Counted from the stretch's first letter, positions 596-11,741 are shown. The stretch is DNA of 48,555 bases from Alphaproteobacteria bacterium (GCA_009782315.1 WRJH01000002.1:1-48555), one strand, 5' to 3'. Program-made: numbers and translations. The notes: generated from the sequence alone by a model not told the origin.

Positions 596-669
596 TGGAG
601 GCCTGGGTCGGAATCGAACCGGCATAAACGGATTTGCAGTCCGGTGCATAACCATTCTGCCACCAGGCC
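596..669 (-). tRNA. tRNA-Cys (anticodon GCA)
   Basis: Reverse complement reads GGCCTGGTGGCAGAATGGTTATGCACCGGACTGCAAATCCGTTTATGCCGGTTCGATTCCGACCCAGGCCTCCA. It has a 7-bp acceptor stem GGCCTGG/CCAGGCC, anticodon loop CTGCAAA, T-loop TTCGATT and an encoded CCA. Confidence 0.9.
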
Positions 670-727
670 ATTTTTCAAAATAAACAACTCTCGATTTTCA
701 GCCCGCGCTTCGCTTGGTGAAAATCGG

Positions 728-877
728 GGGTCGGATTGTTCGCTTTCGCTCACTACTCGTTATCGCGACCTTTGGTCGCTGCGCTCGTCTGCGCCTATGG
801 CTTGCCTCGCTTACTCGTATACGAACCGGCATAAACGGATTTGCAGGAAGGTAGCATAACCATTCTGCCACCAGGCC
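728..877 (-). pseudogene. Disrupted tRNA-Cys-like copy directly upstream of the intact tRNA-Cys
   Basis: Reverse complement of 822-877 matches the intact gene from position 1 through the T-loop TTCG, except for a scrambled anticodon stem (GCTACCTTCCTGCAAATCCG). About 84 nt of unrelated sequence follows (738-821). Then comes a T-arm remnant AATCCGACCC (728-737), with no matching 3' acceptor strand. Confidence 0.6.
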
Positions 878-10990: not shown

Positions 10991-11290
10991 ATGGACATGA
11001 AAGCATTGATGGAGCAGGCAAAGGGTCTGCAAGCGAAAGTCGCCGCGGCCCAGGAATCGTTGGGCCAGACGACGGTAAAGGGCATCGCCGCGGGTGGGCT
11101 GGCCATTGTCGAAATGTCCGGCAAATACGACCTGGTCAAACTGACTTTGTCGCCGGATTTGATGAAAGAGGACGTCGACACCGCGACCGGAATCATCGCC
11201 GCGGCGTTCGGCGACGCAAAAGCCAAGGCCGACGCGACGATAGACAAGGTAATGTCGGCGGCCACCGCCGGAATGCCGATGCCAAATTAA
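10991..11290 (+). CDS. ybaB: Nucleoid-associated protein YbaB/EbfC
   Basis: 99 aa, RBS GAAAGGAG. M..LM.QA..LQ.K....Q..L......G.AGGG.V.V...G......L.I.P.L...D.. is the typical YbaB pattern. Confidence 0.85.
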   Translation: MDMKALMEQAKGLQAKVAAAQESLGQTTVKGIAAGGLAIVEMSGKYDLVKLTLSPDLMKEDVDTATGIIAAAFGDAKAKADATIDKVMSAATAGMPMPN

Positions 11291-11385: not shown

Positions 11386-11413
11386 TTGATTTTTTCCGTA
11401 TACTTGATAATAT
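11386..11413 (+). promoter_or_regulatory. Candidate promoter TTGATT-16-TAATAT for the tRNA-Val locus
   Basis: TTGATT 11386-11391, TAATAT 11408-11413. The disrupted tRNA copy starts 10 nt downstream. Confidence 0.4.
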
Positions 11414-11423
11414 GCATCAGTTC

Positions 11424-11600
11424 GGGTGATTAGCTCAGTTGGTAGAGCGTCTGGTTTACATCCAGCAGGTCGGCGGTTCGCCCGTCTCGCAAATTTACGC
11501 AAAGCGTAAATTTGTGCGAGCCGAGGTTGAAAACCACGGCGAACACGAGACGGAGCGCCACGGCGCAGCGAAGCGGAGACGGGCGAGCCGAAATTTTATA
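11424..11600 (+). pseudogene. Disrupted tRNA-Val-like copy directly upstream of intact tRNA-Val
   Basis: 11424-11480 is identical to the intact gene through the T-loop TTCG, except for acceptor bases 3-4 (GGGTGAT vs GGACGAT). A 105-nt insert follows (11481-11585), bounded by inverted repeats CCCGTCTC/GAGACGGG. Then comes AGCC and no 3' acceptor strand. Confidence 0.6.
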
Positions 11601-11676
11601 GGACGATTAGCTCAGTTGGTAGAGCGTCTGGTTTACATCCAGCAGGTCGGCGGTTCGAGCCCGTCATCGTCCACCA
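11601..11676 (+). tRNA. tRNA-Val (anticodon TAC)
   Basis: GGACGATTAGCTCAGTTGGTAGAGCGTCTGGTTTACATCCAGCAGGTCGGCGGTTCGAGCCCGTCATCGTCCACCA. Acceptor GGACGAT/ATCGTCC, anticodon loop TTTACAT, encoded CCA. Confidence 0.9.
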
Positions 11677-11683
11677 AAAATCA

Positions 11684-11710
11684 AACGGCCCCTGCGGCCG
11701 TTTTATTTTT
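11684..11710 (+). terminator. Intrinsic terminator after tRNA-Val
   Basis: AACGGCC-CCTG-CGGCCGTT followed by TTATTTTT. Confidence 0.7.
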
Positions 11711-11741
11711 GGTTTATTATTATCGTTATAATGGACAAATT

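What the first reader, a model, noticed from the sequence alone, without database searches (positions are those of the whole stretch)
11386..11676. tRNA-Val preceded by a promoter-proximal copy broken in the T-loop by a 105-nt hairpin-ended insert
- **Upstream copy:** A candidate promoter (TTGATT-16-TAATAT) is followed 10 nt later by 57 nt that match the intact tRNA-Val from base 1 to the T-loop TTCG. Only acceptor bases 3-4 differ.
- **Insert:** A 105-nt insert begins there. It is bounded by inverted repeats (TCGCCCGTCTC / GAGACGGGCGA) and contains an inner hairpin GCAAATTTACGC-AAA-GCGTAAATTTGTGC.
- **After the insert:** The T-loop continuation AGCC reappears but the 3' acceptor strand is missing. 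The intact tRNA follows 15 nt later.
- **Parallel:** The break point is the same as in the tRNA-Cys locus.
Basis: seen in the sequence. Interest (0 to 1): 0.6.

Follow-up and report, generated by a model that had tools for sequence, protein, structure and literature searches.

The report
Relic nuclease cassette in tRNA-Val gene
The broken tRNA-Val copy and its 105-base insert are most likely the remains of a small selfish cassette, normally carrying a tiny GIY-YIG nuclease gene, that cut into the old tRNA-Val gene and left a complete replacement copy beside it; this cassette type seems to be unpublished.

Summary
A 57-nt copy of tRNA-Val(UAC) at 11424-11480 differs from the intact gene (11601-11676) only at bases 3-4. 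It stops after the T-loop TTCG and is followed by a 105-nt insert.

The insert is not a generic hairpin. A covariance model built only from eight copies in seven other genomes hits 11481-11585 end to end (40.7 bits, E 4e-6). It has no other hit in this genome.

In six of those eight copies this structured leader directly precedes a 79-aa GIY-YIG nuclease gene. All eight sit after GTTCG of a truncated tRNA, and a complete tRNA follows. One ORF-bearing copy lies at the orthologous ybaB/tRNA-Val locus. Three same-genus relatives have one uninterrupted tRNA-Val there, and one of them shares the promoter that here drives the broken copy.

My reading is an ORF-less relic of a homing-type GIY-YIG cassette. 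The closest known elements are phage T4 SegB and fungal mitochondrial mobile ORFs.

Twelve of the 34 detected tRNA genes in this genome carry comparable scars, from several insert families. The tRNA-Cys insert breaks at the same point but belongs to a different family.

Earlier follow-ups of this scan reported the same cassette class on other genomes.

Cleavage, homing and the leader's role are inferred, not shown.

The parts
10991..11290 (+). ybaB/ebfC-family gene, the conserved upstream neighbour of tRNA-Val(UAC) in this bacterial family
   Evidence: Pfam PF02575, E 3e-18. The same gene precedes tRNA-Val in G002, G003, G004, G009, G010 and G021.
11386..11413 (+). Candidate ancestral tRNA-Val promoter: -35 TTGATT, 16-nt spacer, -10 TAATAT with a TG one base upstream
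   Evidence: Read from the sequence. Conserved upstream of the single intact tRNA-Val of same-genus G002. Not called by the strict consensus scan. Function is inferred.
11424..11480 (+). Dead 5' fragment of the ancestral tRNA-Val gene (positions 1-57, ending at T-loop TTCG); acceptor strand GGGTGAT versus GGACGAT in the intact gene
   Evidence: 55 of 57 bases identical to 11601-11657. Rfam tRNA 34.9 bits, partial. It sits next to the promoter region shared with G002.
11481..11585 (+). Structured 'V-type' cassette leader. Domain 1 is helix P1 (CCGTCTCG with CGAGACGG), a variable hairpin and the conserved GCCGAGGTTGAAAACC hairpin. Domain 2 is GAGCG...GCGCAG, a small hairpin and GAGACGG, with two broken pairs in this copy.
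   Evidence: Model R3, built without this copy, hits exactly 11481-11585 full length (40.7 bits, E 3.7e-6) and nothing else in the window or genome. BLASTN from the window alone finds G021 (74% over 77 nt) and G010 (82% over 49 nt). Covariation.
11586..11589 (+). AGCC: remnant of tRNA positions 58-61 after the leader
   Evidence: Sequence. Seven of the eight other copies keep the matching 4-nt remnant of their own tRNA, such as AGTC, ATTC or AATC.
11590..11600 (+). 11-nt A/T-rich spacer at the position where ORF-bearing relatives carry the ribosome-binding site, the 79-aa GIY-YIG gene and an internal promoter
   Evidence: Comparison with L062, L063, L067-L070. No ORF remnant is recognisable here.
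11601..11676 (+). Intact, presumably functional tRNA-Val(UAC) with encoded CCA; the replacement copy
   Evidence: ARAGORN; Rfam 66.5 bits.
11683..11713 (+). Intrinsic terminator of the tRNA-Val unit
   Evidence: Terminator scan: 8-bp stem followed by a T run.
596..877 (-). Parallel tRNA-Cys locus. It holds a dead 5' copy (877-822), an 84-nt insert of another family (821-738), the remnant AATCCGACCC (737-728), a tRNA-trailer hairpin module (about 727-688) and the intact tRNA-Cys (669-596).
   Evidence: The insert is not recognised by R1 (9.5 bits, E 0.34) or R3. The trailer hairpin recurs after CCA of many tRNAs in 39 of 201 family genomes.

Best explanation
The locus is the ORF-less relic of a small homing-type GIY-YIG nuclease cassette.

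**Intact form of the cassette, as seen in relatives**
- It sits directly after GTTCG of a tRNA stem-loop, usually between T-loop positions 57 and 58.
- It consists of a roughly 100-nt structured leader, a ribosome-binding site, and a 79-aa GIY-YIG gene whose 3' end overlaps a promoter-like sequence.
- A complete copy of the same tRNA then follows.
- The original 5' part of the tRNA is left upstream as a dead fragment, still attached to the old promoter. The tRNA function is never lost.

**State in this window**
- The dead fragment (11424-11480), the leader (11481-11585), the 4-nt T-loop remnant and the replacement tRNA (11601-11676) survive.
- The nuclease gene is absent, and the second helix of the leader has begun to decay.
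- I saw no promoter-like sequence in the 15 nt between leader and tRNA. So the working tRNA-Val is probably transcribed from the old promoter as a precursor with a leader of about 180 nt, which RNase P must remove.

**Shown versus inferred**
- Shown: the architecture, membership of the leader family, the link of that leader to the GIY-YIG gene, the empty site in same-genus relatives, and purifying selection on the gene.
- Inferred: that the nuclease cuts tRNA genes, that spread is by break repair (homing), that an ORF was once present here, and what the leader does.
For: 1. **Membership.** R3 was built from eight leaders in seven other genomes. It matches 11481-11585 end to end (40.7 bits, E 3.7e-6) and is the only hit in the window and genome. 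BLASTN with the window insert alone finds two of those leaders.
2. **Link to the nuclease.** In G021, G010, G135, G116, G082 and G057 the leader lies 3-30 nt upstream of a 79-aa ORF. The ORF matches Pfam GIY-YIG at E 5.5e-15. ORF-less versions like ours occur at G021 tRNA-Val(gac) and G006 tRNA-Met. The G006 copy keeps what looks like the ORF start fused to its end.
3. **Same locus.** G021 carries the ORF-bearing cassette at the orthologous ybaB/tRNA-Val(UAC) locus.
4. **Empty site.** G002, G003 and G004 (same genus) and G009, G010 and G011 have one uninterrupted tRNA-Val after ybaB. G002 shares the promoter region that here precedes the broken copy, so the broken copy occupies the ancestral position.
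5. **Target.** All nine copies start right after GTTCG. One sits after GTTCG in the anticodon loop of tRNA-Pro(cgg).
6. **Selection.** Between cassettes the ORF shows pN 0.13-0.25 against pS 0.61-0.85, which is saturated. The leader still keeps long identical blocks, and 8 base pairs covary.
7. **Trans supply.** This genome still encodes two paralogous mini GIY-YIG genes, directly after tRNA-Met and tRNA-Pro (48-54% identity).
8. **Precedent.** T4 SegB is a GIY-YIG endonuclease whose site contains the T-loop motif GGTTCRANTCC (PMC2330249). SegB-induced breaks generate tandem tRNA-plus-segB repeats (PMC13096335). Fungal mitochondrial mobile ORFs carry a replacement gene end and leave the native end as a dead duplicate (PMC3630166).
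Against: - No trace of the ORF is recognisable in the 15 nt between leader and tRNA, so its former presence here is only inferred.
- The complete tRNA copy still carries an unchanged T-loop, so it is unclear why it would escape cutting.
- The 79-aa protein has only the catalytic domain and no DNA-binding domain. How it would find a site is unknown.
- How a cassette acquires the 5' part of a new tRNA species when it changes tRNA is unexplained.
- The two tRNA copies differ at acceptor positions 3-4 while positions 5-57 are identical. This needs gene conversion or a foreign donor.
- The exact junctions were not confirmed by independent contigs.
Confidence: 0.72

Rival explanations
1. The hairpin-rich leader itself is the mobile unit. 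It would be a small non-autonomous element that inserts into loops of DNA hairpins, here into the T-loop of a tRNA copy. It would be moved in trans, perhaps by the mini GIY-YIG proteins encoded elsewhere in the genome. Under this reading this copy never had an ORF, and the ORF in relatives is a passenger or later addition.
For: - ORF-less copies with the same layout (leader, 4-nt remnant, about 10 A/T-rich nt, tRNA) occur at three different tRNAs in three genomes.
- A second family, the A-type element (model R1), is clearly abundant without ORFs. It has 11-13 copies here and occurs in 88 of 151 family genomes.
- A-type copies lie in D-loops, T-loops and other hairpin loops, and form head-to-tail arrays.
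- Two mini GIY-YIG genes remain in this genome.
Against: - The V-type leader is single-copy here and at most two copies per genome in 151 genomes (9 hits).
- Six of nine copies carry the ORF at a fixed distance.
- The G006 copy looks like an internal ORF deletion.
- A simple insertion into the only tRNA-Val gene would be lethal, and this model does not explain the replacement copy.
Confidence: 0.15
2. The partial copy is an attachment-site scar left by a tyrosine-integrase element that integrated into the T-loop of tRNA-Val and was later almost completely deleted.
For: - Integrases commonly target tRNA T-loops and create tRNA fragments (PMC9897764).
- The genome has two tyrosine recombinases.
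- Several other tRNAs here have 3'-end duplicates downstream (Lys, Asn, Gly, Gln, Pro).
Against: - The 5' part is duplicated here, not the 3' part that integrative elements normally carry.
- The two recombinase genes lie on other contigs (C7, C8).
- The insert belongs to a family that is linked to a GIY-YIG gene, never to an integrase, in the loci examined.
- The same about 100-nt residue at nine loci is not what random deletion of islands would leave.
Confidence: 0.04
3. The arrangement is functional for the cell. Either the upstream copy plus insert is a processed small RNA or regulatory leader of tRNA-Val, or it is exon 1 of a tRNA spliced across the insert to the shared 3' end.
For: - The leader is conserved with covariation although synonymous sites of the neighbouring ORF are saturated.
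- The upstream acceptor strand GGGTGAT could still pair with the intact 3' strand through two G-U pairs (read from the sequence).
- The tRNA must be made from a transcript that includes the leader.
Against: - Same-genus relatives do without it.
- Helix P3 of this copy has two broken pairs.
- There is no acceptor 3' strand of its own, no match to any Rfam family including introns and ribozymes, and an intact gene lies 15 nt away.
- Conservation is explained as well by a role in the cassette's own expression or spread.
Confidence: 0.05
4. Assembly artefact: a chimeric join of reads from two strains at the repeated tRNA sequence.
For: - The genome is a 60-contig metagenome bin at low depth (about 4-8x in the two holder runs).
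- No listed Logan contig spans 11481-11600 exactly.
Against: - The same layout is present in eight other loci of seven independently assembled genomes.
- Contig breaks fall where a 57-nt repeat predicts.
- A related variant contig joins the tRNA-Val 5' part to a V-type leader in run X1.
Confidence: 0.02

Closest known systems
Phage T4/T6 SegB, a free-standing GIY-YIG homing endonuclease in the tRNA gene cluster (PMC2330249, PMC13096335)
   Same: - Both have a GIY-YIG catalytic domain and lie among tRNA genes.
- The SegB site contains the T-loop motif GGTTCRANTCC and SegB often cuts right after CCAR. Here cassettes sit after GTTCG of the T-loop, and paralogous ones sit directly after CCA.
- SegB breaks produce tandem tRNA-plus-nuclease repeats through short homologies.
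   Different: - SegB is a phage protein with a DNA-binding part in addition to the catalytic domain. The protein here is 79 aa and is the catalytic domain only.
- The cassettes here are chromosomal, in small-genome termite-gut bacteria.
- They lie inside a truncated tRNA copy and carry a conserved roughly 100-nt structured leader.
- No cleavage or homing has been shown for them.
Mobile ORF elements (mORFs) of fungal mitochondria, such as Allomyces atp6 and Glomus atp6/atp9/cox2/nad3 (PMC3630166)
   Same: - An endonuclease gene lands inside an essential gene.
- It brings a replacement for the part it displaces.
- The native part is left as a non-functional duplicate next to it.
   Different: - mORFs replace the 3' (C-terminal) end of protein genes, often in frame. 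Here the 5' 57 nt of a tRNA gene are duplicated.
- The native fragment here stays with the old promoter.
- A structured non-coding leader is part of the unit here.
tRNA gene fragments left by integrative elements (PMC9897764)
   Same: Partial tRNA copies lie next to an intact tRNA gene, and the break point is in a tRNA loop.
   Different: - Integrase scars duplicate the 3' part and flank an island that has an integrase gene.
- Here the 5' part is duplicated, and the intervening DNA is a leader linked to a nuclease gene.
Group I introns with GIY-YIG genes in bacterial tRNA genes (PMC3984707)
   Same: Both are a tRNA gene interrupted by a structured element that may carry a GIY-YIG gene.
   Different: - There is no ribozyme core and no Rfam match.
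- The position is the T-loop, not the anticodon loop (with one exception in a relative).
- No 3' exon follows.
- Function is rescued by a second gene copy, not by splicing.

Membership tests
tRNA-riding mini GIY-YIG cassette with V-type leader (defined here from 8 loci in 7 related genomes) | Conserved two-domain leader sequence and structure | tested here: met
   R3, built without the window copy, gives 40.7 bits, E 3.7e-6, full length at 11481-11585. It is the only hit in the genome.
tRNA-riding mini GIY-YIG cassette with V-type leader | The leader starts immediately after GTTCG of a truncated tRNA copy and is followed by a short remnant of the next tRNA bases | tested here: met
   GGTTCG|CCCGTCTCG at 11480/11481 and AGCC at 11586-11589. 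All 8 other copies start after GTTCG, and 7 of them keep the 4-nt remnant.
tRNA-riding mini GIY-YIG cassette with V-type leader | A 79-aa GIY-YIG ORF directly downstream of the leader | tested here: not met
   Only 15 nt lie between the leader and the intact tRNA. TBLASTN finds no GIY-YIG match on contig C2. This copy is therefore a relic or derivative, not a complete member.
tRNA-riding mini GIY-YIG cassette with V-type leader | A complete copy of the same tRNA downstream, with the broken copy at the ancestral position | tested here: met
   Intact tRNA-Val at 11601-11676. The promoter region upstream of the broken copy is shared with G002's single gene.
SegB-type free-standing GIY-YIG homing endonuclease | GIY-YIG catalytic domain | tested here: met
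   Relatives' cassette ORF matches PF01541 at E 5.5e-15. G000 paralogues are at C12 and C16. The ORF is not present in this locus.
SegB-type free-standing GIY-YIG homing endonuclease | Additional DNA-binding region that gives site specificity | tested here: not met
   The ORFs are 79 aa, and Pfam covers residues 1-72 with the catalytic domain alone. 71 homologues of 75-113 aa were found. Longer forms were not searched.
SegB-type free-standing GIY-YIG homing endonuclease | Site-specific cleavage at the tRNA T-loop motif and preferential inheritance in crosses | not testable with these tools
   Only the insertion positions (after GTTCG, or after CCA) are consistent with it.
Integrase att scar at a tRNA gene | Duplicated 3' part of the tRNA flanking an element with an integrase gene | tested here: not met
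   The 5' part (positions 1-57) is duplicated. The two tyrosine recombinase genes are on contigs C7 and C8.
Intron-containing tRNA (group I or bulge-helix-bulge type) | Complete 5' and 3' exons around a recognisable intron | tested here: not met
   ARAGORN and Rfam give only a partial tRNA. There is no intron or ribozyme family at E up to 1. No acceptor 3' strand follows the insert.
Miniature inverted-repeat transposable element | Multiple copies with terminal inverted repeats and target-site duplication | tested here: not met
   It is single-copy in the genome. The terminal inverted repeat is not conserved in the family. No target duplication beyond the tRNA copy itself.

The most novel reading that the evidence does not exclude
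The conserved roughly 100-nt leader is not just a 5' UTR. It would be the working partner of the domain-less 79-aa nuclease.

- **Possible roles:** an RNA (or folded single-stranded DNA) that supplies target recognition or scaffolding for cutting hairpin loops of tRNA genes, or the hairpin 'plug' that marks and protects the occupied site.
- **Consequence:** this would make the cassettes a new kind of structure-guided or RNA-assisted homing system living on tRNA genes.
- **What fits:** the leader is conserved with covariation while synonymous sites are saturated. The protein lacks any DNA-binding domain. All insertion points lie in loops of stem-loops after G.
- **Status:** nothing tested here supports an interaction.
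Probability: 0.1. Interest if true: 0.85.

Novelty: new variant of a known kind. Interest (0 to 1): 0.5.

Why it matters
- **How a selfish element survives in a single-copy essential gene.** tRNA genes are among the most conserved and indispensable DNA in a cell, and in a 0.8-Mb genome most are single-copy. A cassette that cuts into such a gene yet always leaves a working copy shows how this can be done without splicing. It also explains tRNA fragments that confuse annotation.
- **Extent in this lineage.** About a third of the detected tRNA genes here carry such scars, from several insert families. These elements therefore shape tRNA loci, promoters and precursor leaders.
- **Practical interest.** The tiny 79-aa nuclease and its conserved leader are attractive for biochemistry, because the basis of its target choice is unknown.
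- **Publication status.** I found no published description. Earlier follow-ups of this scan reached the same conclusion for other genomes, so this is a further, ORF-less example from another lineage (NCBI labels homologues of the nuclease as from Rickettsiales/Alphaproteobacteria) rather than a first sighting.

Tried and rejected
- **Wrong taxon guess.** I first assumed an ultra-small candidate-phyla-radiation bacterium. I dropped this because NCBI labels homologues of the cassette nuclease as from Rickettsiales/Alphaproteobacteria genome bins, and the holder runs are termite-gut metagenomes.
- **IS200/IS605-type or TnpB/omega-RNA element.** I considered an element with the tRNA continuation acting as a guide. 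No Y1 transposase, TnpB or reverse transcriptase is found in the genome, which is 88% complete. The idea lost its basis once the GIY-YIG link appeared.
- **Retro-copy of mature tRNA.** The duplications often start at tRNA position +1, which suggested this. It is rejected because in G010 and G082 the duplication includes 6 to at least 20 nt of upstream flank.
- **Rfam.** No family other than tRNA reaches threshold in the window or in 11 related loci. The weak hits, such as Clostridiales-1 at 26 bits, look like chance.
- **Model R1 (A-type element).** It does not recognise the Val insert and barely the Cys insert. The Val, Cys and A-type inserts are therefore different families, although they share motifs such as GCGCAG, a GAAG mini-hairpin and a GCG end.
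- **Expression.** No RNA holder was listed for this stretch.
- **Contig check.** No listed contig spans 11481-11600 exactly. This shows nothing either way.
- **Unused tools.** Structure and complex prediction were not used, because no protein is encoded in the finding itself.
- **NCBIfam.** It gives no family name for the mini nucleases.

Full report
**1. What is in the sequence**

tRNA-Val(UAC) lies at 11601-11676 (ARAGORN; Rfam 66.5 bits). It is followed by an intrinsic terminator at 11683-11713.

Upstream, 11424-11480 repeats tRNA positions 1-57. Only positions 3 and 4 differ: GGGTGAT against GGACGAT. The copy stops after the T-loop TTCG.

After the copy come these parts:
- A 105-nt insert at 11481-11585.
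- AGCC, which is tRNA positions 58-61.
- An 11-nt A/T-rich spacer.
- The intact gene.

There is no 3' acceptor strand for the first copy, and no tool calls it a tRNA. The whole 177-nt leader folds much better than shuffled controls (z = -4.9).

The candidate promoter TTGATT-16-TAATAT matches only 8 of 12 consensus positions and is not called by the scan. It has a TG one base upstream of the -10 box and is conserved in a relative.

**2. The pattern is genome-wide**

The window is contig C2 of an 814-kb, 60-contig, 88%-complete genome. Comparing each of the 34 detected tRNA genes with the genome and reading the loci shows partial tRNA copies next to 12 of them.

- **Upstream 5' copies:** Val-tac, Cys, Glu-ctc and four Leu genes.
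- **Downstream 3' copies:** Gln-ctg, Gly-tcc, Asn, Lys and Pro-cgg.

In most of these loci a 70-120-nt hairpin-rich insert sits in a loop of the partial copy. The position is T-loop 57/58, or D-loop 12/13 in the Leu genes.

The inserts fall into several families. The commonest I call A-type, with model R1. It is a long hairpin with three tandem G-A motifs, and 7 of its base pairs covary. It has 11-13 copies here and occurs in 88 of 151 genomes of the same family, sometimes in head-to-tail arrays.

R1 does not recognise the Val insert and hardly recognises the Cys insert.

**3. The orthologous locus in relatives**

tRNA-Val(UAC) follows a ybaB-family gene (Pfam). In same-genus G002, G003 and G004, and in G009, G010 and G011, a single uninterrupted tRNA-Val follows ybaB.

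G002 shares about 130 nt of promoter region with the sequence that precedes the broken copy in the window. The broken copy therefore sits at the ancestral position. Everything from 11481 to at least the 5' part of the intact gene is additional.

**4. What the insert is**

BLASTN with the insert alone found partial matches in other genera. Reading these loci showed the same layout in G021 and G010. A first model added G135, G116, G082, G057 and G006.

The layout in these loci is:
- A tRNA 5' part ending in GTTCG.
- A homologous leader of about 100 nt.
- In seven of the eight, a 4-nt remnant of the next tRNA bases.
- In six of the eight, a ribosome-binding site and a 79-aa ORF.
- A short stretch that includes a promoter-like sequence overlapping the ORF end.
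- A complete copy of the same tRNA.

The ORF is a GIY-YIG catalytic domain and little else (PF01541, E 5.5e-15). The host tRNAs are Pro-ggg (three times), Pro-cgg, Pro-tgg, Val-tac, Val-gac and Met.

In G116 the cassette sits after GTTCG in the anticodon loop of tRNA-Pro(cgg). So GTTCG in a loop, not the T-loop as such, marks the site.

G021 carries the ORF-bearing form at the orthologous ybaB/tRNA-Val(UAC) locus. ORF-less forms like ours occur at G021 Val-gac and G006 Met. The G006 copy keeps a short string that looks like the ORF start fused to the ORF end.

To avoid circularity I built model R3 from the eight foreign leaders only. It matches 11481-11585 over its full length (40.7 bits, E 3.7e-6). 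It finds nothing else in the window or the genome.

In that alignment helix P1 of the window copy is intact, and two pairs of the second domain are broken. This fits decay after loss of the gene.

**5. Signs of function of the cassette**

Between cassettes the ORF has pN 0.13-0.25 against pS 0.61-0.85, which is saturated. The protein is therefore under long-standing purifying selection.

The leader keeps blocks of identical sequence across the same divergence. Eight of its base pairs covary, for example CCGTCTCG/CGAGACGG against CCGTTCCG/CGGAACGG.

In several genomes the dead 5' fragment is 100% identical to the live copy although the cassettes are old. This suggests gene conversion between the repeats (inference).

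This genome still has two paralogous mini GIY-YIG genes, directly after the CCA of tRNA-Met (C12) and tRNA-Pro (C16). They are 48-54% identical to the cassette protein.

**6. Most likely mechanism**

By analogy, the nuclease makes a break in or near the T-arm of a tRNA gene that lacks the cassette. Repair from a cassette-bearing copy installs the leader, the gene and a replacement tRNA part. The native 5' part is stranded upstream.

The precedents are:
- T4 SegB, a GIY-YIG enzyme whose 27-bp site contains GGTTCRANTCC and which often cuts just after CCAR (PMC2330249).
- SegB-dependent tandem amplification of a tRNA-plus-segB unit through short homologies (PMC13096335).
- Fungal mitochondrial mobile ORFs that bring a replacement gene end and leave the native end as a dead duplicate (PMC3630166).

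In the window the nuclease gene has then been lost. I saw no promoter-like sequence in the 15 nt before the intact tRNA. tRNA-Val is therefore presumably made from the ancestral promoter with a 5' leader of about 180 nt that contains a copy of its own first 57 nt. Recombination between the two 53-nt repeats would delete 177 bp. It would give a tRNA whose acceptor stem holds two G-U pairs (read from the sequence).

None of the enzymatic steps is shown. Open problems:
- Why is the intact copy, with an unchanged T-loop, not cut?
- How does a 79-aa catalytic domain find its site?
- How does a cassette acquire the 5' part of a new tRNA species?
- Why do the two copies differ only at acceptor positions 3-4?

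**7. Rival explanations**

- **Leader as mobile unit.** A leader-only mobile hairpin element moved in trans remains possible. However, the leader is single-copy here and rare elsewhere (9 hits in 151 genomes), and it is usually tied to the ORF.
- **Integrase scar.** This does not fit, because the 5' part is duplicated and no integrase accompanies the family.
- **Intron or regulatory RNA.** Same-genus genomes lack it, and this copy is decaying.
- **Assembly error.** The layout recurs in seven other assemblies. The exact junctions could not be confirmed from public contigs.

**8. The tRNA-Cys parallel and other modules**

The Cys copy (877-822) also ends at the T-loop TTCG. Its 84-nt insert is another family and shares a GAGTAAGCGAG motif with the insert at tRNA-Asn.

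It is followed by a hairpin module, CCGATTTTCACC...CTGAAAATCG. In 39 of 201 family genomes this module turns up, usually directly after the CCA of many different tRNAs.

This lineage thus carries several families of small hairpin elements around tRNA genes. A plausible reading, which is inference, is that dead tRNA fragments left by cassettes are safe landing sites for such loop-seeking elements.

**9. Context and novelty**

Homologues of the nuclease are labelled GIY-YIG nuclease family protein from Rickettsiales or Alphaproteobacteria genome bins. The runs that hold the window are termite-gut metagenomes.

My literature searches found SegB, mobile ORFs and integrase-derived tRNA fragments. 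They found no description of chromosomal mini GIY-YIG cassettes that overwrite tRNA genes.

Earlier follow-ups of this scan reported the same class on other genomes and likewise found no publication. Those are unchecked notes that agree with my reading, not independent proof. This locus adds:
- An ORF-less relic.
- A structured two-domain leader with covariation.
- Another host lineage.

Noticed in passing
G000 contigs C29:8697, C10:11787(-), C42:4366(-), C14:3068(-), C34:2535(-), C7:11845, C6:13504, C11:18995 (loci L001-L009): The A-type repeat is 72-118 nt, starts AATCCGAGTAT and ends GAGCG. It folds into a long hairpin with three tandem G-A motifs, and 7 pairs covary. It sits in the D-loops or T-loops of partial tRNA copies and in other hairpin loops. 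It occurs in 88 of 151 family genomes, with up to 15 copies and head-to-tail arrays (for example G105:C4, G142:C7, G050).
   Followed up: partly
window 727-688 (-); also G000:C14:2938-2973 and loci L104-L112: A conserved hairpin module, CCGATTTTCACC...GGCTGAAAATCG, is usually followed by a second GC-rich hairpin. It sits directly after the CCA end of many different tRNA genes in 39 of 201 family genomes. It could be a tRNA trailer or processing signal, or another element that lands after CCA.
   Followed up: partly
G000:C12:5858-6094(-) and G000:C16:4501-4740(+) (L006): Two intact mini GIY-YIG genes (about 79-84 aa) lie right after the CCA of tRNA-Met and tRNA-Pro(cgg). Each is preceded by a CTTCG-rich nested-hairpin region. 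The C16 gene is followed by the 3' half of an A-type element, a copy of tRNA-Pro positions 58-76 and a terminator. The same hairpin region without an ORF fills the tRNA-Ala/tRNA-His spacer on C1.
   Followed up: partly
G116:C1 (L068, about 1470-1900): A V-type cassette with its ORF is inserted after GTTCG of the anticodon loop of tRNA-Pro(cgg) rather than in the T-loop. This points to GTTCG in a loop as the target.
   Followed up: partly
G021:C40 (L015, about 1650-1850): An almost full-length but decayed tRNA-Leu copy carries an A-type element in its D-loop. It lies head to head with a second interrupted copy and an intact tRNA-Leu(aag).
   Followed up: no
G000:C11:3096-3122(-): A promoter-proximal tRNA 5' half with a CAT anticodon context has no recognisable 3' half nearby. 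It could be a fragment or an interrupted Met/Ile tRNA gene.
   Followed up: no
G000:C11:11011-11040(-): A tRNA-like T-arm and acceptor segment lies in a region where ARAGORN finds no gene. It may be the 3' end of a tmRNA that the tool missed, since no tmRNA was called in the genome.
   Followed up: no
G002:C2 (L014), upstream of tRNA-Leu(cag): The Leu-cag arrangement (5' fragment, A-type element, fragment, trailer hairpin, intact gene) is shared by G000 and G005, which are different genera. In both, the fragment tracks the acceptor of the intact gene. In G002 it is reduced to a 12-nt remnant. This is an example of slow decay of such scars.
   Followed up: partly
window 11453-11569, run X1 record 3: A 422-nt contig at higher depth in the same termite-gut run matches the tRNA-Val 5' part joined to a V-type leader at about 89% identity, then runs on unlike the window. 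It is probably a related strain with its own cassette. Its sequence could not be read.
   Followed up: no
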